Shown here piece by piece: positions 21,223 through 28,829 of a stretch of DNA of 64,000 nucleotides (within the stretch, counting starts at the first letter, position 1; every line of letters starts with the position of its first letter). The position numbers were made by a program, and so were the translations under genes. The notes under the pieces were generated by a model, which saw only the letters and a list, made by a program, of their open reading frames with translations, made no database searches and was not told where the DNA came from. The stretch lies in assembly GCF_050320075.1 (NCBI RefSeq), contig NZ_CP190018.1; one strand, 5' to 3'. The DNA comes from Escherichia coli (GTDB lineage Bacteria > Pseudomonadota > Gammaproteobacteria > Enterobacterales > Enterobacteriaceae).

Positions 21223-21485
21223 GCGTCGTACCCCCGTTTGCGTCCGGCAATGCGCCCGGCCATCCATGCGGTGACTTCAGAGTGCAGCCAGGCCACATTT
21301 TTACCGCCAAGACTCACCTGCGGCGGAAATTCCCCTTTACGGATGAGTTCATAGATGGTCGAGCGTGACAGGCCGCACAGGTGCATCACTTCCGGCAGAC
21401 GTAAAAAACGCTCCTGCGTGATGTCCGGCAGCGGCATCAGTGGCGTCACAGGGGCGGGAGACGGGGAAGAAAAAACAGCTTGCAT
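21219..21485 (-). CDS. AlpA/Vis-family small DNA-binding regulator (excision/integration control)
   Basis: 88-aa ORF; HTH signature [48 protein letters not shown]; true start could be an internal Met. Confidence 0.75.
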
Positions 21486-21764
21486 CGGGCTACCTCGTTA
21501 ATGTCCATACAGCACCGGATAAGTCCGTCCGGCTTCGGGTAGCGCTTTATTTTGTGAATATTTTCAGCAGACGCAACAGGGGGGATTTGTTCCGGCAGTC
21601 TTACAATGGCTGTGTATTTTTTGTTCATCTCCACTTAAAGTCATTTAAAGCCACTTAAAGCAATTCGTAATTTTTATAGTGAAATACAAATCGTTTTTTC
21701 TTATTCATTCCCGGCGAATTAATAAAAACAAACAGTAATAAACAGCACAAAAAGCCCATCAACG

Positions 21765-21868
21765 GGTGAACAGTGGTGAACAGACGGTGAACAGTCATTA
21801 CTGCGATTGTTCACCCTTTAACTTACTGTATTACTTATCTTTTTTATTAAGGTGAACAGAGGTGAACA
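21765..21868. promoter_or_regulatory. cluster of six P4 type-I iterons, crr- or ori-like
   Basis: GGTGAACA at 21765, 21775, 21786, 21851 and 21861 (10-11 bp phasing) plus inverted TGTTCACC at 21808-21815; between the vis-like gene and sid. Confidence 0.65.
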
Positions 21869-22038
21869 GTAAAATATAAAAAAAACAAACAGTAAGCCGG
21901 TTTTTCCTGCGACCTTTTCCTGGCTTGCCGGTCTGAGGATGAGTCTCCTGTGTCAGGGCTGGCACATCTGCAATGCGTCGTGTTGTTGTCCGGTGTACGT
22001 CACAATTTTCTTAACCTGAAGTGACGAGGAGCCGGAAA

Positions 22039-22773
22039 ATGTCTGACAACACCATCCCTGAATATCTGCAACCCGCGCTGGCACAACTGGAAAAGGCCAG
22101 AGCCGCCCATCTTGAGAACGCCCGCCTGATGGATGAGACCGTCACGGCCATTGAACGGGCAGAACAGGAAAAAAATGCGCTGGCGCAGGCCGACGGAAAC
22201 GACGCTGACGACTGGCGCACGGCCTTTCGTGCAGCCGGTGGTGTCCTGAGCGACGAGCTGAAACAGCGCCACATTGAGCGCGTGGCACGCCGGGAGCTGG
22301 TACAGGAATATGACAATCTGGCCGTGGTGCTGAATTTTGAACGTGAACGCCTGAAAGGGGCGTGTGACAGCACGGCCACCGCCTACCGGAAGGCACATCA
22401 TCACCTGCTGAGTCTGTATGCAGAGCATGAGCTGGAACACGCCCTGAATGAAACCTGTGAGGCGCTTGTCCGGGCAATGCATCTGAGCATCCAGGTACAG
22501 GAAAATCCGCTCGCCAACACCACCGGCCATCAGGGCTACGTCGCGCCGGAAAAGGCTGTCATGCAGCAGGTGAAATCATCGCTGGAGCAGAAAATTAAAC
22601 AGATGCAAATCAGCCTCACCGGCGAGCCGGTTCTCCGGCTGACCGGACTGTCAGCGGCAACACTCCCGCACATGGATTATGAGGTGGCAGGCACACCGGC
22701 ACAGCGCAAGGTGTGGCAGGACAAAATAGACCAGCAGGGAGCAGAGCTTAAGGCCAGAGGACTGCTGTCATGA
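22039..22773 (+). CDS. sid: P4 Sid-like capsid size determination (external scaffold) protein
   Basis: 244 aa from ATG 22039 (MSDNTIPEYLQPALAQLEKARAAH...), SD GAGGAG 7 nt upstream; ORF track has a GTG start at 22021. Confidence 0.85.
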   Translation: MSDNTIPEYLQPALAQLEKARAAHLENARLMDETVTAIERAEQEKNALAQADGNDADDWRTAFRAAGGVLSDELKQRHIERVARRELVQEYDNLAVVLNFERERLKGACDSTATAYRKAHHHLLSLYAEHELEHALNETCEALVRAMHLSIQVQENPLANTTGHQGYVAPEKAVMQQVKSSLEQKIKQMQISLTGEPVLRLTGLSAATLPHMDYEVAGTPAQRKVWQDKIDQQGAELKARGLLS

Positions 22774-23270
22774 TTTACTGCCCGTCGTGTGGACATGTTG
22801 CTCACACCCGTCGCGCACATTTCATGGACGATGGCACCAAGATAATGATTGCACAGTGCCGGAATATTTATTGCTCTGCGACATTTGAAGCGAGTGAAAG
22901 CTTTTTCTCTGACAGTAAAGATTCAGGAATGGAATACATTTCAGGCAAACAGAGATACCGCGATTCACTGACGTCGGCCTCCGGCAGTATGAAACGCCCG
23001 AAAAGAATGCTTGTTACCGGATATTGTTGTCGGAGATGTAAAGGCCTTGCGCTGTCAAGAACATCGCGGCGTCTGTCTCAGGAAGTCACCGAGCGTTTTT
23101 ATGTGTGCACGGATCCGGGCTGTGGTCTGGTGTTTAAAACGCTTCAGACCATCACCCGCTTCATTGTCCGCCCGGTCACGCCGGACGAACTGGCAGAAAA
23201 CCTGCATGAAAAACAGGAACTGCCGCCAGTACGGTTAAAAACACAATCATATTCGCTGCGTCTGGAATGA
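22770..23270 (+). CDS. delta: P4 Delta-like late transcription activator (tandem Ogr-type zinc fingers)
   Basis: 166 aa; two Cys4 motifs CPSCGHVAH...CRNIYCSATFEASESF and CRRCKG...CTDPGCGLVF; start overlaps sid stop (ATGA). Confidence 0.85.
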   Translation: MIYCPSCGHVAHTRRAHFMDDGTKIMIAQCRNIYCSATFEASESFFSDSKDSGMEYISGKQRYRDSLTSASGSMKRPKRMLVTGYCCRRCKGLALSRTSRRLSQEVTERFYVCTDPGCGLVFKTLQTITRFIVRPVTPDELAENLHEKQELPPVRLKTQSYSLRLE

Positions 23271-23343
23271 GGGCTGCCGGTTAACACCGGCCGTCGCCAC
23301 ACACCGTATTTTTATTCTTCAGCATGATGAGAAAGAGATAACG

Positions 23344-23916
23344 ATGGAAAGCACAGCCTTACAGCAGGCCTTTGACACCTGTCAGAATAACAAAGCAGCA
23401 TGGCTGCAACGCAAAAATGAGCTGACTGCGGCCGAACAGGAATATCTGCGGCTTCTGTCAGGAGAAGGCAGAAACGTCAGTCACCTGGACGAATTACGCA
23501 ATATTATCGAAGTCAGAAAATGGCAGGTGAATCAGGCCGCCGGTCGTTATATTCGTTCGCATGAAGCCGTTCAGCACATCAGCATCCGCGACCGGCTGAA
23601 TGATTTTATGCAGCAGCACGGCACAGTACTGGCGGCCGCACTGGCACCGGAGCTGATGGGCTACAGTGAGCTGACGGCCATTGCCCGAAACTGTGCCATA
23701 CAGCGTGCCACAGATGCCCTGCGTGAAGCCCTTCTGTCCTGGCTTGCGAAGGGTGAAAAAATTAATTATTCCGTACAGGATAGCGACATTTTAACGACCA
23801 TCGGATTCAGGCCTGACGCGGCTTCGGTGGATGACAGCCGTGAAAAATTCACCCCTGCGCAGAACATGATTTTTTCGCGCAAAAGTGCGCAACTGGCATC
23901 ACATCAGTCTGTGTAA
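23344..23916 (+). CDS. psu: P4 Psu-like polarity suppression protein
   Basis: 190-aa ORF following delta, just upstream of cos; length and order as in P4. Confidence 0.85.
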   Translation: MESTALQQAFDTCQNNKAAWLQRKNELTAAEQEYLRLLSGEGRNVSHLDELRNIIEVRKWQVNQAAGRYIRSHEAVQHISIRDRLNDFMQQHGTVLAAALAPELMGYSELTAIARNCAIQRATDALREALLSWLAKGEKINYSVQDSDILTTIGFRPDAASVDDSREKFTPAQNMIFSRKSAQLASHQSV

Positions 23917-23952
23917 AACTCCCCGAAAATCCGCCCGTTTTTACTGAAAAAA

Positions 23953-23980
23953 GCCATGCATCGATAAGGTGCATGGCTTT
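23953..23980 (+). terminator. hairpin after psu (possible terminator)
   Basis: GCCATGCA tcgataagg TGCATGGC stem-loop followed by TTT. Confidence 0.4.
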
Positions 23981-24080
23981 GCATGCGTTTTCCTGCCTCA
24001 TTTTCTGCAAACCGTGCCATTCCCGGCGCGGTCTGAGCGTGTCAGTACAACTGCATTAAAACCGCCCCGCAAAGCGGGCG

Positions 24081-24099
24081 GGCGAGGCGGGGAAAGCAC
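24081..24099. other. cos site: 19-nt P2/P4-type cohesive-end sequence
   Basis: GGCGAGGCGGGGAAAGCAC matches the P2/186/P4 cohesive-end sequence as I recall it; lies just downstream of psu. Confidence 0.7.
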
Positions 24100-24349
24100 C
24101 GCGCGCTAAACCTGATGAATAAGGAATATTTTAAAAACATTTGTGGATATGAATATTTGGGTTGTAAATGAGTGTTTTTATCTGTTTTTATGTGCTGTGA
24201 AGCAATGTTTGAGTCGATATTTTTATAAAGCTCAATAAAAATTACATTATCATTGATAAGAATGGTTGTCGGATTAACACGTTTTTAAGCTATTTATATA
24301 TAATTAAACCTCGGCAAGGTTGCTGAGGTTTAATCGATTGGTTAATTAT

Positions 24350-27076
24350 TTAGTTGATTAGGTGTGACTCAGTTGCAGAGTGACCTTTTTTTGTCCTAAC
24401 AAACTTGATAGCAAGTGTTTTTCCTCTAATGTAATTAGACCAGTTATATTTTTCTTCACCAAGGCAACTGTCCCTATGAATTAATATTTCTTTTCCATCA
24501 GAATCTCTGGCAAAAACAAATCCTTTTCCTAATGTAAGATCTGAATATATTTCTGCTATAGAATATCCATTATTTTTCCATGTGATTTGTTCGAATTCGG
24601 CAATTGTTTTAGATGAGCTAAAAGCACTCCATTTGGGGGAGGTGAATGGGTTGTTTGGTATTTTTGTTGCTCTCATTGTTGAAATGATATTAACTACTTC
24701 TTTACTTGATATCTTAAAATCTTTAGAGAACTTTGTAATGTCGGCAAGATTGCTTTCAGCAAAATCAATTACTTTTATAATGAATTGTTGAGATAGTTTA
24801 TCAATGTTGTTTTTGATCGTGTCACAAAAAAGATTTAAAGATTTAATAGCTTCGTCAGAAAGTCGATCGCTGATGTTTTCTTTTTCAAATATAAATTCCA
24901 ATATGTCGATAACTTCAGATATGTTTTTTTCTACAGACTCAGGGTTAATGTCGAAGTTATTTTCACAAGAACGCTTTAATGCGGCGACTCTAAAGTAAGC
25001 TTGCTCTTGAGGTGAATGTGAATCTTTCCATTTTTCAGTGTATTCAAGAATGTCTGGGTATTCTTTACCATAAAGATGAACACCTAAATACTCTCGCATT
25101 ATTATAGAAGACAGTACTTCGCCTGAATGCTCAACTCTGTCGAATCCAGAATCAATCAATTCCTGAGATACTTTTTGAGCCTCTATAAAATCACCAATAT
25201 CTTTATAGATATACATCAGAGTTAAGTTGTTTAGTGGATTTTCAGACTCTATGCCTATTGCTGACTTTATACAAGAAATAGCACCTAAATTATCACCCTG
25301 CTTATGTAGTATTCTGGCATATGTTCGCATAAATAGAGGATTTTTTTGATATATTTGAGCGAGTGTTTTAAAATCCTCATAAATAACATTTAATTTATCT
25401 TTGTTAACGCTTTTGTAGCCTAAAATTTTATTTGCTCTGTTAACAGCTATTTGCAAGGAGTCAGGGCTATTATTAGGGATGAATCGATAATCAAACCGAT
25501 CTATTTCTTTATCTTGTTGGAATTTTTGTAAGTGCAATATTTCAGTTCGTTGTTTTCTTGCTTTTTCAGCAATAATGTTTCTGACGGTGTTATTTCTTGG
25601 TGATGTGATTAATAGTTCTTTGATTGATTCACTTAAAGAAAACTCTTCTTCTCCCGTATTAGATGTTTTCCGGGATACTAAAGATGTGTTCAATATTTCT
25701 TTAATCGCTTTTGCTATTGAGTCGGGATCTGAATCTAAGAAATGAGTTAAAAATGATCTTGATGATGCTCCGGTGACAAACAAGCATTCAAGAATAGATA
25801 TTGCATCGTTACTTAAAACATCTAATAGATTATTAAATGAAAATGCAGCGATATCTTTTTTGGATTTTTCTATTGAGTCAGGTAAAGCCATTCCATTATA
25901 AATGGAATCTATTGTAAGCCTTATTGCTAAGGGGTTAAAATGAGTCACTTCAGTAATTCTCGTGAGTTCTTCTGGGGTTAAGTTTATTATCCCTCGTTTA
26001 TCTGAATATGATTTGGCTAGATGGAAAGCCACACCAGATTGCAATTCCTTAAGTGAAATTGGGTAAGCTCCGTCAACCATTATTCGACTAGTGACTACCA
26101 CTTTAAAATTCGAAGGAAGAGTATACTGGAAACGAATGAACTCATCAGGACCATCTCTTAATAAAGTTTCGAGATTATCGATACATAGGAGAGTGCTTTC
26201 TATATCTTGGTCGTTTATAATTTCTGAATATAGATCATCATAGTTTTCTATCTCTTCATCAGGATTAAAAAACTCCACTATTTCTTTTTTTATTTCAGAA
26301 ATGGTGTCAATGTTTTTTAACTCAGAAATACCATCAGCAGTGAGATGATGTTTCTTTAATGTTAAATAGCAAATGTTTTTGAATTTCTCATTGGCTTTTG
26401 GTGAGATGCTCAATTCTTTTAAGAAATCTAAAATTAAAGCGGTTTTTCCTACGCCTCCAGGAGCTACAACCGCAATGAATGGAGTTCGATCGTTATTTAT
26501 TGCTGATAATAACTCTTTCTTTTCACCTTTACGGCCTATAAGGCTGGTAATGTCGTGATCAAATTTATCAGGCAGGTTGTTATTAATTTCCCAGCTAATA
26601 GTAGAAAACCATTCTTCTGGAGGTGCTTTTAATTGACCAGTAGATGCGGAATAATAAGCATCCTTCACACTTTTTAAACCAAGTACTTCTATATATGGAT
26701 GTGAGGCTATAGCTGCAGCGCAATGCCAGTAATGCTCATGGAATGGTCGGGTTGGATGACTAATTTGATTTCTTATAAAAAATAAATCAACAGCTGTACA
26801 GAACTCTTTCAGTTCTGACAGTTTATCATAGTCAGATGTACCCTTAGCTAATTGCAGGGCATAATTGAAAATTTCACCGATATAACTTGCTTGGATAAGA
26901 GTTTGCGTATTGAAAACGGGACCTCTCCCACGCTCCAGTTCTAGTTTAGAACGAGGTTCGAAATGTTCGCTTAACCTACTTTTACCTCCTGCATCCTCAC
27001 TAACAACATACGCCGCCAATGCTTTTTCTAAGGCATAAACTATCATACTAGTTTTCGTATCAAGATATTCAGACAT
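24350..27076 (-). CDS. STAND/NB-ARC-type P-loop NTPase with N-terminal Rx4H domain, helical repeats and C-terminal cold-shock-like OB-fold segment; candidate anti-phage defence cargo
   Basis: 908-aa ORF with AAGGA SD 6 nt upstream; Walker A IAVVAPGGVGKT (nt 26441-26458), Walker B TLLCIDNLE, sensor-I-like KVVVTSR, GLPL-like HFNPLAI; AT-rich; sits between cos/psu and int. Confidence 0.85.
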   Translation of the reverse strand: MSEYLDTKTSMIVYALEKALAAYVVSEDAGGKSRLSEHFEPRSKLELERGRGPVFNTQTLIQASYIGEIFNYALQLAKGTSDYDKLSELKEFCTAVDLFFIRNQISHPTRPFHEHYWHCAAAIASHPYIEVLGLKSVKDAYYSASTGQLKAPPEEWFSTISWEINNNLPDKFDHDITSLIGRKGEKKELLSAINNDRTPFIAVVAPGGVGKTALILDFLKELSISPKANEKFKNICYLTLKKHHLTADGISELKNIDTISEIKKEIVEFFNPDEEIENYDDLYSEIINDQDIESTLLCIDNLETLLRDGPDEFIRFQYTLPSNFKVVVTSRIMVDGAYPISLKELQSGVAFHLAKSYSDKRGIINLTPEELTRITEVTHFNPLAIRLTIDSIYNGMALPDSIEKSKKDIAAFSFNNLLDVLSNDAISILECLFVTGASSRSFLTHFLDSDPDSIAKAIKEILNTSLVSRKTSNTGEEEFSLSESIKELLITSPRNNTVRNIIAEKARKQRTEILHLQKFQQDKEIDRFDYRFIPNNSPDSLQIAVNRANKILGYKSVNKDKLNVIYEDFKTLAQIYQKNPLFMRTYARILHKQGDNLGAISCIKSAIGIESENPLNNLTLMYIYKDIGDFIEAQKVSQELIDSGFDRVEHSGEVLSSIIMREYLGVHLYGKEYPDILEYTEKWKDSHSPQEQAYFRVAALKRSCENNFDINPESVEKNISEVIDILEFIFEKENISDRLSDEAIKSLNLFCDTIKNNIDKLSQQFIIKVIDFAESNLADITKFSKDFKISSKEVVNIISTMRATKIPNNPFTSPKWSAFSSSKTIAEFEQITWKNNGYSIAEIYSDLTLGKGFVFARDSDGKEILIHRDSCLGEEKYNWSNYIRGKTLAIKFVRTKKGHSATESHLIN

Positions 27077-27094
27077 ATATGATCCTTGTTCAAA

Positions 27095-28282
27095 TTAAAG
27101 AGTGGTTTGCAATCCCCACCAATTCATTAACTCTATACGTTGTTCTAAATAGGTACTTCTATTGTAAGCTTTTCGAACCTCATTCCTCTCGGAATGCGCC
27201 AATGCTGCTTCAATAACATCAGGATTAAATTCTGCTTCGTTCATTGCCGTACTGGCAATTGATCTTAGTCCATGGGCCACTAACTTACCGCCATAACCTA
27301 TTCTCTTCAAGGCAGCGTTTGCCGTCTGACTGTTCATCGGCTGTTTTGGATCGTTTCTGCTCGGGAAAATATGTTCACGGTGACCACTGATAGGCTTCAT
27401 TACTTCCAAAATACCTAAAGCCTGAGGTGACAAAGGGACAATGTGTTCACGTTTAGCCTTCATTCGTTCGGCGGGAATCGTCCAGAGTTTGGCCTCGAGA
27501 TCGATCTCGACCCACCGAGCACCAGAAGCCTCAGAAGGGCGCACTAGGGTCAGGAGCTGCCACTCGATAAGACAGCGAGTCGGAACAGACAGATTCGACA
27601 TTACCAGAGAACGCATCAGCTTAGGTAATTCTTCGGGTCGTAGCGTGGGCATATTCTGCTTTTTGGGTTTCTCAAATGCCATTCCAACACCTGATGCTGG
27701 ATTTGCATCAATTAGACCAGTGTTTACGGCATAAATCATTATCTCGTTAATGCGCTGTACCAGACGACGTACCGTCTCTAGCGCGCCACGTGCTTTGATT
27801 GGTTCGAGGGTTTCAACAAGTGTTCGGGCTTTGATTTGCTGAACAGGGAGCTCACCGATGGCAGGTAATACATCTTTTTCCAGGGAACGCCAAATGTCTT
27901 TCGCGTAATCAGGGGTAACGCTTTTGCTTTTTATCTGGAACCAGTTGGTCGCAACAGTCGAAAAAATACTGTCTAGAGCTATCTGTTGTTGTTCTTCGAT
28001 AAATTCAGCTTGAACTTGTGGGTCTATACCATTAGCCAACAAAGCAAGGTAATCCGCTCTTAACCGTCGAGCATCAGCAAGTGAAAGGGCGGGGAAAGCA
28101 CCAAGCCCCATCATTGTCCGCTGTTTTGTTGCTGGACGTTGATAACGGAAACGCCACAACTTCTTACCGTTCGTTTTAACGAGCAGAAAAAGGCCATCGC
28201 CATCATGTAACGTTAGATCCTTTTCTAACGCTTTAGCGCGCAGAACTTCGGTGTTGGTCAGGGGGCGTGTTGTTCTTGCCAC
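27095..28282 (-). CDS. int: tyrosine site-specific integrase (P4/CP4-57 IntA type), ssrA-specific
   Basis: 395-aa ORF with GTG start; catalytic motifs AHGLRSIA and KAYNRSTYLE; next to the ssrA 3' end. Confidence 0.9.
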   Translation of the reverse strand: MARTTRPLTNTEVLRAKALEKDLTLHDGDGLFLLVKTNGKKLWRFRYQRPATKQRTMMGLGAFPALSLADARRLRADYLALLANGIDPQVQAEFIEEQQQIALDSIFSTVATNWFQIKSKSVTPDYAKDIWRSLEKDVLPAIGELPVQQIKARTLVETLEPIKARGALETVRRLVQRINEIMIYAVNTGLIDANPASGVGMAFEKPKKQNMPTLRPEELPKLMRSLVMSNLSVPTRCLIEWQLLTLVRPSEASGARWVEIDLEAKLWTIPAERMKAKREHIVPLSPQALGILEVMKPISGHREHIFPSRNDPKQPMNSQTANAALKRIGYGGKLVAHGLRSIASTAMNEAEFNPDVIEAALAHSERNEVRKAYNRSTYLEQRIELMNWWGLQTTL

Positions 28283-28304
28283 TGTGGCCGCTCCTTCATG
28301 AATT

Positions 28305-28352
28305 GGTATACGTGTTTAGGTATACATCCTACCGTATACCTAAACGTATACC
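28305..28352. promoter_or_regulatory. four GTATACC/GGTATAC repeats in an imperfect inverted arrangement upstream of int (candidate arm-type sites / int promoter region)
   Basis: GGTATAC at 28305 and 28319, GTATACC at 28334 and 28346. Confidence 0.45.
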
Positions 28353-28466
28353 AATAATCACTGGATTTAGCTGGATATCCTCGGACAATGGTAGACACAA
28401 AAAAGCCCGCAGAGCTTGTGCCATGCGGGCTTTCAGGATTTCTCCGGACGTATCCGGAAGAGCAAG

Positions 28467-28481
28467 TGGTGGAGCTGGCGG
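28467..28481. repeat. attL-side direct repeat (ssrA 3' terminus)
   Basis: TGGTGGAGCTGGCGG, identical to 16764-16778. Confidence 0.75.
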
Positions 28482-28829
28482 GAGTTGAACCCGCGTCCGA
28501 AATTCCTACGTCCTCGGTACTACATGCTTAGTCAGTCTTTACATTCGCTTGCCAGCTGCGGACGGACACGCCACTAACAAACTAGCCTGATTAAGTTTTA
28601 ACGCTTCAACCCCAGGCAGGGCTTCCACGCGATCTCTTTTGGGTTTGACCTCTCTTGATCCCCGTCCTAAGAGCGGAGGCTAGGGAGAGAGGGCTCTAAG
28701 CAGGTTATTAAGCTGCTAAAGCGTAGTTTTCGTCGTTTGCGACTATTTTTTGCGGCTTTTTACGAGGCCAACCGCCCCTCGGCATGCACCTTGGGTTTCG
28801 CAAATCCCGTCGAATCCAGAATCAGCCCC
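28467..28829 (-). ncRNA. ssrA: tmRNA (SsrA), 363 nt
   Basis: Reverse complement reads GGGGCTGATTCTGGATTCGACGGGATTTGCGAAACCCAAGGTGCATGCC...GGTTCAACTCCCGCCAGCTCCACCA. Confidence 0.95.

What the first reader, a model, noticed from the sequence alone, without database searches (positions are those of the whole stretch)
24081..24099. P2/P4-type cos sequence immediately next to the cargo gene
GGCGAGGCGGGGAAAGCAC matches, from memory, the 19-nt cohesive end of P2/186/P4. Its presence implies the element, including the candidate defence gene, can be packaged and transduced by a P2-like helper.
Basis: partly seen in the sequence, partly recalled or inferred. Interest (0 to 1): 0.5.

Follow-up and report, generated by a model that had tools for sequence, protein, structure and literature searches.

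The report
P4 satellite packaging site, already known
The 19 bases are the genuine DNA-packaging (cos) site of an intact P4-type phage satellite inserted next to the E. coli ssrA gene, and a variable "cargo" gene sitting directly beside that site is a published feature of this satellite family, so the finding is correct but ordinary.

Summary
Confirmed and already known. GGCGAGGCGGGGAAAGCAC lies at 24081-24099, is unique in the window, and is 19/19 identical to the cohesive end of P4 and P2. Phage 186 differs at 2 bases. It sits in the full 55-bp core shared by P2 and P4 (24052-24106), which is 55/55 identical to P4.

The site belongs to an 11,703-bp P4-like satellite (attL 16764, attR 28467 in the 3' end of ssrA). 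Its crr-alpha-epsilon-CI RNA-vis-sid-delta-psu-cos part is 98.5% identical to P4, with every core ORF intact. P4's gop/beta/cII/int are replaced by one 908-aa gene and an IntA-type integrase.

In six P4-like elements the sequence is conserved up to 7 nt past the 19-mer and then diverges completely. This is the cos-adjacent defence hotspot of Rousset et al. 2022, whose Table S1A already lists this cargo protein (WP_089620504) as "hypothetical".

Packaging by a P2-like helper is therefore very plausible: cos, hijacking genes, att sites and size are all right. The same cargo+integrase module is near-identical in divergent strains. Transduction itself remains untested. The cargo is a predicted HEPN-like/NB-ARC/TPR STAND NTPase that no known defence-system model recognises.

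The parts
16764..16786 (.). attL: a copy of the 3' end of ssrA (core TGGTGGAGCTGGCGG), at the ypjA-side end of the element
   Evidence: Direct repeat D3 pairs it with 28467-28489 at a spacing of 11,703 bp. The junction next to ypjA is the same as the distal att of CP4-57 in K-12.
16840..16859 (+). Two CGTATACC repeats, probable integrase arm-type sites on the attL side
   Evidence: All 5 copies in the 64-kb window lie at the two ends of the element, against 0.96 expected by chance.
16926..17045 (+). Single 120-bp crr repeat (cis replication region); P4 has two
   Evidence: It aligns to both P4 crr repeats, 4291-4410 and 4471-4590. YZLc1-3, Ec-U3, 11PC and EC100 carry two copies; CFSAN061771 carries one.
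17091..19424 (-). alpha primase-helicase, 777 aa
   Evidence: 772/778 identical to P4 alpha with no internal stop; matches TIGR01613 P4-family primase.
19439..19759 (-). P4 orf106
   Evidence: 107/107 identical to P4.
19895..20350 (-). P4 orf151
   Evidence: 148/152 identical to P4.
20343..20630 (-). epsilon, derepressor of the helper prophage
   Evidence: 95/96 identical to P4.
20875..20962 (-). CI immunity RNA (Rfam C4 antisense RNA)
   Evidence: RF01695, 74.9 bits. isrK (21070-21147) and the c4-a1b1 targets (21108-21160) lie nearby.
21219..21485 (-). vis (orf88), AlpA-type excision/regulatory protein
   Evidence: 88/89 identical to P4.
22039..22773 (+). sid, capsid size determination
   Evidence: 243/245 identical to P4.
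22770..23270 (+). delta, activator of helper late genes
   Evidence: 163/167 identical to P4; matches the Ogr/Delta family.
23344..23916 (+). psu, capsid decoration / polarity suppression
   Evidence: 185/191 identical to P4.
24052..24106 (+). 55-bp cos core shared by P2 and P4: 29 nt left, the 19-nt cohesive end, 7 nt right
   Evidence: 55/55 identical to P4. It is the only P2-window DNA similarity (P2 33546-33593 plus 1-27). P2-like hits across E. coli genomes cover just this stretch. PMC2231350 speaks of 'the 55-bp cos sequence'.
24062..24081 (.). G+C-rich dyad CCGCCCCGC-AAA-GCGGGCGG abutting the top-strand nick position
   Evidence: Predicted hairpin. On the minus strand it scores as terminator-like. 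The G-C pair at 24069/24075 is A-T in phage 186.
24081..24099 (+). 19-nt cohesive-end sequence (the finding). Inferred nicks lie between 24080/24081 on the top strand and 24099/24100 on the bottom strand.
   Evidence: 19/19 identical to P4 and P2. The nick positions are inferred from the ends of the linear P4 and P2 records.
24107..27094 (.). Variable (hotspot) segment that replaces P4 gop/beta/cII
   Evidence: Six P4-like elements diverge completely from +8 after the 19-mer. Homology to other ssrA elements resumes at 27111-27114. G+C is 0.28-0.34, against 0.56 in the P4 core.
24350..27076 (-). Cargo gene, 908 aa: HEPN-like N-terminal domain, NB-ARC STAND NTPase, TPR array, C-terminal beta-rich domain (WP_089620504)
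27095..28282 (-). Tyrosine integrase of the IntA (CP4-57) type, ssrA-specific
   Evidence: NCBIfam PRK09692, 581 bits. 62% identical to K-12 IntA and 37% to P4 Int.
28305..28352 (.). Three CGTATACC repeats, probable arm-type sites on the attR side
28467..28489 (.). attR, inside the 3' end of ssrA
   Evidence: Chromosomal-level divergence between carrier strains resumes at 28510.
28467..28829 (-). ssrA (tmRNA), the integration target
   Evidence: ARAGORN; Rfam RF00023, 292.8 bits.

Best explanation
Window 24081-24099 is the cohesive-end sequence inside the cos site of an intact, probably mobilisable P4-like phage satellite. The satellite is 11.7 kb and is integrated at the 3' end of ssrA in E. 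coli.

The following steps are inferred from P4 biology, not shown here:
- When a P2-like helper infects or is induced, Vis and Int excise the element as an 11,703-bp circle.
- Alpha replicates it from ori/crr.
- Epsilon and Delta switch on the helper's late genes.
- Sid and Psu redirect the helper capsid protein into small capsids.
- The helper terminase recognises the 55-bp cos core (24052-24106) on circular monomers.
- It makes nicks staggered by 19 nt, top strand at 24080/24081 and bottom strand at 24099/24100.

The packaged linear DNA would then begin with the cos end, followed directly by the cargo gene and the integrase. After injection the ends anneal, and Int inserts the circle at ssrA.

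The segment just beyond the cos core (24107-27094) is the family's known variable hotspot. Here it holds one gene for a predicted HEPN-like/NB-ARC/TPR STAND NTPase, a candidate abortive-infection defence protein.
For: Shown by sequence:
- The 19-mer is 19/19 identical to P4 and P2.
- The 55-bp core is 55/55 identical to P4. Only 3 mismatches to P4 occur in the 164 nt between psu and cos.
- P4 4469-11624 aligns at 98.5% to window 16922-24080, with all nine ORFs intact. CI RNA, isrK and the C4 targets are found by Rfam.
- attL and attR are 11,703 bp apart, and CGTATACC arm-type repeats occur only at the two ends. The size is 1.007 times that of P4.
- There are no P2 structural genes in the window, so this is a satellite and not a helper remnant.

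Population evidence:
- Matches to the cos region occur in 2440 of 5426 complete E. coli genomes and stop at window ~24104-24116.
- Six P4-like elements with five different cargos diverge exactly 7 nt after the 19-mer.
- The same element sits at ssrA in 7 genomes with four different distal flanks.
- Between carriers, 24016-28509 differs by about 5 substitutions plus one indel. The P4 core and the chromosome differ by about 2%. This indicates recent horizontal spread.

Literature:
- This cargo accession is in that paper's Table S1A.
- P4 cos cosmids of 5-11.6 kb are packaged with a P2 helper (PMC2231350, PMC9942202).
Against: - Nothing here demonstrates cleavage, packaging or transfer.
- The window has one crr repeat where P4 has two. 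From memory, one repeat suffices for P4 replication, but I could not check this.
- Sequence to the right of +7 differs from P4. I could not read the paper that defines the minimal functional cos (Ziermann & Calendar 1990). The same divergence occurs in every P4-like element examined, which argues that this stretch is not needed.
- The integrase and attP arms are of the IntA type, while Vis is P4's. Their compatibility is assumed.
- The two most similar complete genomes differ from the window by a crr copy and a few SNPs. One of them (YZLc1-3) has no P2-type portal/terminase match on its chromosome.
Confidence: 0.85

Rival explanations
1. The cos is a fossil. The element is a domesticated or cryptic island, like CP4-57 at the same site. 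It keeps the cos sequence but can no longer be excised, replicated or packaged.
For: The same attB is used by the cryptic prophage CP4-57 in K-12. Only one crr repeat is present. No helper is detected in the closest genome. No experimental data exist.
Against: Every P4 core ORF is intact at 97-100% identity and the regulatory RNAs are present. Both att ends and the arm repeats are intact. The length is P4-like. The 55-bp core carries no change. The cargo+int module is near-identical across divergent chromosomes with different distal flanks, which needs recent transfer.
Confidence: 0.1
2. The site's position matters mainly for evolution. The cos end acts as a fixed recombination point, and the second crossover falls within int. 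Cargo+int-3' modules are thereby swapped between P4 cores. This complements the packaging role rather than excluding it.
For: The left boundary is sharp. Identity of about 98% runs up to 24106-24109 and then drops to nothing in four elements with other cargos. On the other side, identity climbs gradually from 69-74% at the int 3' end to 99% at its 5' end. Between carriers of the same cargo, the low-divergence block starts between 24016 and 24240 and so spans cos. Rousset et al. proposed this idea as speculation (PMC9122126).
Against: Only 4-5 comparisons were made, and several share ancestry. A sharp edge is also expected if selection simply forbids changes inside cos. No breakpoint statistics were computed.
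Confidence: 0.35
3. The 19-mer is a chance match or belongs to a remnant of a P2-like helper prophage.
For: None beyond the short length of the motif.
Against: About 5e-7 exact matches are expected by chance. 7.2 kb of flanking sequence is 98.5% identical to P4. The only P2-window DNA similarity is the cos core.
Confidence: 0.01

Closest known systems
Satellite phage P4 (NC_001609), cos site and left half of the genome
   Same: The 19-nt cohesive end and the 55-bp core are identical. crr-alpha-orf106-orf151-epsilon-CI-vis-sid-delta-psu are in the same order at 98.5% nucleotide identity. The size is nearly the same (11,703 vs 11,624 bp).
   Different: P4's gop, beta, cII and int are absent, replaced by one 908-aa gene and an integrase only 37% identical to P4 Int. 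The element is integrated at ssrA, not at the tRNA gene that P4 uses (the latter is from memory). It has one crr repeat instead of two.
cos-adjacent defence hotspot of P4-like satellites (Rousset et al. 2022, PMC9122126; also PMC8628076 and bioRxiv 10.64898/2026.02.27.708500)
   Same: The variable cargo lies between psu/cos and int and starts right after the conserved cos core. This exact cargo protein, WP_089620504, appears in their Table S1A.
   Different: That table lists the cargo only as 'hypothetical'. No defence test of it appears in the parts of the supplementary tables I read. The STAND/NLR-like hotspot proteins they describe carry TIR, SIR2 or nuclease effectors.
Phage P2 cos (NC_001895)
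   Same: The 19-mer is identical, and 52 of the 55 core positions are shared.
   Different: Everything outside 24052-24107 is unrelated. No P2 structural or terminase genes are in the window.
Cryptic prophage CP4-57 of E. coli K-12
   Same: Same attachment site (3' end of ssrA) and the same distal junction next to ypjA. Its integrase IntA is 62% identical.
   Different: The K-12 annotation of CP4-57 (22 kb) lists no sid, delta, psu or P4-type primase gene. I did not search it for cos.
Retronphage phiR73 (recalled from memory; cited in PMC9122126 as Inouye et al. 1991)
   Same: A P4-like satellite with a different cargo (a retron) in the equivalent position. It is reported to be packaged with a P2 helper, so it is a precedent for a hotspot variant being mobilised.
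   Different: Its cargo and integration site differ. It was not compared by sequence here.

Membership tests
P2/P4-type cos site | 19-nt cohesive-end sequence GGCGAGGCGGGGAAAGCAC | tested here: met
   19/19 identical to the P4 and P2 records. Phage 186 is 17/19.
P2/P4-type cos site | Conserved ~55-bp core around the cohesive end, shared by helper and satellite | tested here: met
   Window 24052-24106 is 55/55 identical to P4 and 52/55 to P2. P2-like hits in E. coli genomes cover exactly this stretch.
P2/P4-type cos site | Cut by P2-family terminase on circular monomers to give 5' 19-nt overhangs; supports packaging | not testable with these tools
   Needs an in vivo transduction or in vitro cleavage assay. 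The paper on minimal functional length (Ziermann & Calendar 1990) is not held in the library.
P4-like satellite (core set int, alpha, epsilon, alpA/vis, sid, delta, psu) | All seven core components present, intact and in the canonical order | tested here: met
   The order is alpha-epsilon-vis-sid-delta-psu-cos-cargo-int.
P4-like satellite | Discrete element bounded by att repeats, of a size that fits the small capsid (~10-12 kb) | tested here: met
   The att repeats are 11,703 bp apart. Arm-type repeats occur only at the ends. The same unit is found with four different distal flanks.
P4-like satellite | Helper-dependent excision, replication and transduction | not testable with these tools
   Only indirect evidence is available: the cargo+int module is near-identical across divergent strains.
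P4 cos-adjacent defence hotspot | Unrelated cargos at the same position between the cos core and int in otherwise similar elements | tested here: met
   The window, P4 and four ssrA elements (SIR2 and three hypothetical cargos) diverge from +8 after the 19-mer. Only 7 of 5426 genomes share this cargo.
P4 cos-adjacent defence hotspot | The cargo provides anti-phage defence | not tested
   Prediction only: STAND NTPase with an HEPN-like N-terminus. No PADLOC system matches beyond a weak P-loop hit.
Avs/AVAST-type STAND defence proteins (considered for the cargo) | Match to a described Avs/AVAST family model | tested here: not met
   PADLOC gives only PDC-S27, E = 2.6e-4, over 44 residues. An AVAST5 structure ranks 23rd in Foldseek, behind Apaf-1/CED-4/NRC2. 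The cargo may work like an Avs protein but is not filed as a member.

The most novel reading that the evidence does not exclude
The cos core may be more than a packaging signal. It may be the fixed left breakpoint at which cargo+integrase-3' modules are exchanged between P4 cores. On this reading the abrupt edge at +7 and the graded divergence inside int are the footprint of cos-end-initiated recombination. The module carried here would then encode a so far uncharacterised HEPN-like/NB-ARC/TPR anti-phage protein, spread by P2-mediated transduction.
Probability: 0.3. Interest if true: 0.4.

Novelty: already known. Interest (0 to 1): 0.15.

Why it matters
It places the neighbouring 908-aa gene inside a mobile, helper-packaged satellite at the position where this family is known to carry anti-phage genes. 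That is useful context for judging the gene as a defence candidate, but it adds no new biology. The cos site, its sharing between P2 and P4, and the cos-adjacent hotspot are all published, and this cargo accession is already in the published hotspot table. The items that could be worth a bench test are the uncharacterised STAND protein and the asymmetric boundary pattern around cos.

Tried and rejected
- Chance match: rejected.
- P2 prophage remnant: rejected. BLAST of P2 against the window finds only the cos core, plus an ogr/delta protein-level similarity.
- Window is identical to a listed genome: no. YZLc1-3 and Ec-U3 have 100%-identical flanks or cargo, but each carries a second crr repeat and 7-14 SNPs in the element.
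- Second cos: a 15-nt copy of part of the cohesive end lies in int (28088-28102). It lacks the first bases and both flanks (4 of its first 5 positions mismatch). It encodes G-A-F-P-A on the minus strand and is conserved in 3 of 4 related integrases. I treat it as a coding coincidence.
- Cargo as one of the hotspot proteins tested by Rousset et al. (HEPN-TPR, NOD-1): their sequences are different proteins.
- Cargo as a known defence family: PADLOC and NCBIfam give nothing useful. A profile search of PDB sequences finds only TPR proteins.
- Ziermann & Calendar 1990, and literature on crr: not held or not found in the library.
- Resident helper: a chimeric query (cargo plus P2 portal/terminase) showed extra matches in 5 of the 7 carrier genomes, but none in YZLc1-3 or EC13. 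The extra places were not inspected individually.

Full report
**Observation**

The sequence GGCGAGGCGGGGAAAGCAC is at window 24081-24099 on the + strand. It is the only match in the window even with three mismatches allowed. An exact 19-mer is expected about 5e-7 times in 2 x 64 kb. The P4 reference record NC_001609 begins with exactly these 19 bases. The P2 reference NC_001895 annotates the same 19 bases as cosL and cosR.

**Context**

BLAST of P4 against the window aligns P4 4469-11624 to window 16922-24080 at 98.5% identity over 7.16 kb. P4 1-31 aligns to 24081-24112. The right end of the linear P4 genome is therefore joined to its left end at 24080/24081, as expected for a circularised and then integrated P4 genome.

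All nine P4 ORFs in the shared part have the same length as in P4, no internal stops, and 97-100% amino-acid identity. They are alpha, orf106, orf151, epsilon, the 'cI' ORF, vis/orf88, sid, delta and psu. Rfam finds the C4-type antisense RNA (the P4 CI immunity RNA family), isrK and the C4 target sites at 20875-21160.

To the right of cos, P4's gop, beta, cII and int are missing. In their place are a 908-aa ORF (24350-27076, minus strand) and a 395-aa tyrosine integrase (27095-28282, minus strand). The tmRNA gene ssrA follows at 28467-28829 on the minus strand.

The last 23 nt of ssrA are repeated at 16764-16786, with a 15-nt exact core TGGTGGAGCTGGCGG. The two copies are 11,703 bp apart. The octamer CGTATACC occurs five times in the 64-kb window, against 0.96 expected. 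All five copies lie just inside the two att copies, like integrase arm-type sites.

The integrase is 62% identical to IntA of the K-12 cryptic prophage CP4-57 and 37% identical to P4 Int. The distal junction next to ypjA is the same as that of CP4-57 in K-12. The window is E. coli. Its chromosomal flanks are 100% identical to strain YZLc1-3.

**Anatomy of the cos site**

I lined up the joined ends of P4 and P2 with the window. The shared block is TGCATTAAAACCGCCCCG(CA/TG)AAGCGGGCG + the 19-mer + (C/T)GCGCGC. That is 29 + 19 + 7 = 55 bp, at window 24052-24106.

- The window is 55/55 identical to P4 and 52/55 to P2.
- This block is the only DNA similarity between P2 and the window.
- Its length matches 'the 55-bp cos sequence' cited from Ziermann & Calendar in PMC2231350.
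- A G+C-rich dyad (24062-24081) abuts the inferred top-strand nick.

**The edge of the variable region**

A search of 5,426 complete E. coli genomes with 23917-24349 found matches in 2,440 genomes.

- P4-like matches start at the psu end and stop at window ~24104-24116.
- P2-like matches cover only ~24048-24107.
- Only 7 genomes continue to the right.

An explicit alignment included the window, P4 and four other ssrA-integrated P4-like elements. Their cargos are a SIR2 protein and three different hypothetical proteins. It shows identity through the 19-mer plus (C/T)GCGCGC and then complete divergence. G+C drops from 0.56 in the P4 core to 0.28-0.34 in the segment beyond.

This is the arrangement described by Rousset et al. 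2022 (PMC9122126). [quoted passage not shown] Their Table S1A already lists the cargo protein of this window, WP_089620504, as 'hypothetical'. Later work treats the same hotspot at larger scale (PMC8628076; bioRxiv 10.64898/2026.02.27.708500).

**Is packaging plausible?**

The 19-mer by itself would not show it. The context does.

- The complete cos core is unchanged.
- Every gene P4 uses to exploit its helper is intact.
- Both att ends are intact.
- The excised circle would be 11,703 bp against 11,624 bp for P4.
- P4-cos cosmids of 5-11.6 kb are packaged with a P2 helper (PMC2231350 and PMC9942202).

There is also indirect evidence of mobility. The same unit is present at ssrA in 7 genomes from chicken, human, mink and cheese isolates. 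Beyond attL it is followed by ypjA, by two different other islands, or directly by glaH.

Against the carriers 11PC and EC100, the P4 core differs by about 2%, with the last difference at 24015. From 24016 to 28509 there are only about five substitutions and one 5-nt indel, and none at all in int. Chromosomal-level divergence resumes at 28510, just past the att core. So the cargo+integrase module has spread recently relative to the divergence of the strains.

Points that remain open:

- The window has one crr repeat where P4 and four of the carriers have two.
- Vis is P4's, while Int and the att arms are of the IntA type.
- The stretch right of +7 differs from P4, and I could not read the paper that defines the minimal functional cos.
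- A chimeric-query search indicates that 5 of the 7 carrier genomes have further matches, most likely P2-type portal/terminase genes. YZLc1-3 and EC13 do not.

**The cargo**

The 908-aa protein has only weak Pfam hits (AAA_16, nSTAND1) and no PADLOC or NCBIfam family. It belongs to a large family of full-length homologues of 895-930 aa, at 33-36% identity, in Gammaproteobacteria, Bacteroidota and others. Relatives at 59-60% identity occur in Pantoea and Yersinia. NB-ARC is detected in 20 of 32 members.

Invariant residues include R102-N103-x3-H107 (an R-x4-H motif of the HEPN type), the Walker A motif G207-T212, and D300. The AlphaFold model has mean pLDDT 84. Its best matches among solved structures are Apaf-1, the NRC2 resistosome and CED-4, with an AVAST5 filament further down the list. 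A profile search of PDB sequences matched only TPR proteins, over profile positions roughly 520-700.

My reading is a STAND NTPase with an HEPN-like RNase effector and TPR sensor that works like Avs/NLR-type abortive-infection proteins. That is inference. Membership in a described Avs family was tested and not met.

**A pattern worth noting**

The boundary on the cos side is abrupt. On the other side, identity to the four elements with other cargos rises gradually, from 69-74% at the 3' end of int to 99% at its 5' end. Together with the SNP profile, this fits the speculation of Rousset et al. that a cohesive end provides one fixed recombination point and homologous recombination provides the other. 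The sample is small and partly non-independent. Purifying selection on cos would also produce a sharp edge.

**Verdict**

The feature is the well-known P4 cos site, in the published cos-adjacent hotspot arrangement. Novelty: already known. Interest is low. The residual interest lies in the uncharacterised cargo protein and the asymmetric boundary pattern.

Noticed in passing
window 24350-27076 (minus strand): The cargo is a 908-aa predicted HEPN-like / NB-ARC / TPR / C-terminal beta-domain STAND NTPase. It belongs to a widespread family of ~900-925-aa proteins that no PADLOC or NCBIfam model recognises. RNxxxH, Walker A and D300 are invariant. The published P4 hotspot table lists it only as 'hypothetical'.
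   Followed up: partly
window 24016-28509 compared with L006-L008; 27111-28282 compared with L009-L012: Divergence around the hotspot is asymmetric. There is an abrupt edge 7 nt after the cohesive end, but a gradient inside int, from 69-74% identity at its 3' end to 99% at its 5' end. Between carriers of the same cargo, the near-identical block runs from cos to attR, while the P4 core and the chromosome differ by about 2%.
   Followed up: partly
window 16926-17045: There is only one 120-bp crr repeat, whereas P4 and four carrier genomes (YZLc1-3, Ec-U3, 11PC, EC100) have two, 180 bp apart. CFSAN061771 also has one. This is either a real deletion between direct repeats or an assembly collapse. 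The effect on replication was not checked.
   Followed up: partly
window 28088-28102: An exact 15-nt copy of part of the cohesive end plus one base (GGCGGGGAAAGCACC) lies inside the integrase gene. On the coding strand it encodes G-A-F-P-A. It is conserved in 3 of 4 related ssrA integrases and is absent from P4 int. It is probably a coding coincidence, but it is improbable a priori.
   Followed up: partly
window 24062-24081: Read on the minus strand, the conserved dyad next to the nick site is followed by TTTTAATG and scores as an intrinsic-terminator-like site. It could stop transcription running from the hotspot into psu. The G-C pair at 24069/24075 is A-T in phage 186.
   Followed up: no
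window 16840-16859 and 28305-28352: All five CGTATACC octamers in the window sit just inside attL and attR. They are likely arm-type binding sites of the IntA-type integrase.
   Followed up: yes
window 11900-16603 and 16604-16786; L014: The element occupies the same ssrA-ypjA slot as the 22-kb cryptic prophage CP4-57 of K-12. In other carriers it lies in tandem with further integrase-bearing islands that carry defence-like genes (SIR2, a three-component ABC system, ParB/recombinase).
   Followed up: partly
carrier genomes (H133-H139): A chimeric query (cargo plus P2 portal/terminase) gave extra matching places in 5 of the 7 carrier genomes, probably resident P2-like helpers, but none in YZLc1-3 or EC13. 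YZLc1-3 nevertheless has three cos-like places.
   Followed up: partly
window 27076-27097: The cargo start codon lies only 18 nt downstream of the integrase stop on the same strand. In two other ssrA elements the cargo overlaps int by 4 nt. No strong promoter-like site was found between them, so the cargo may be co-transcribed with int or driven from inside it.
   Followed up: no
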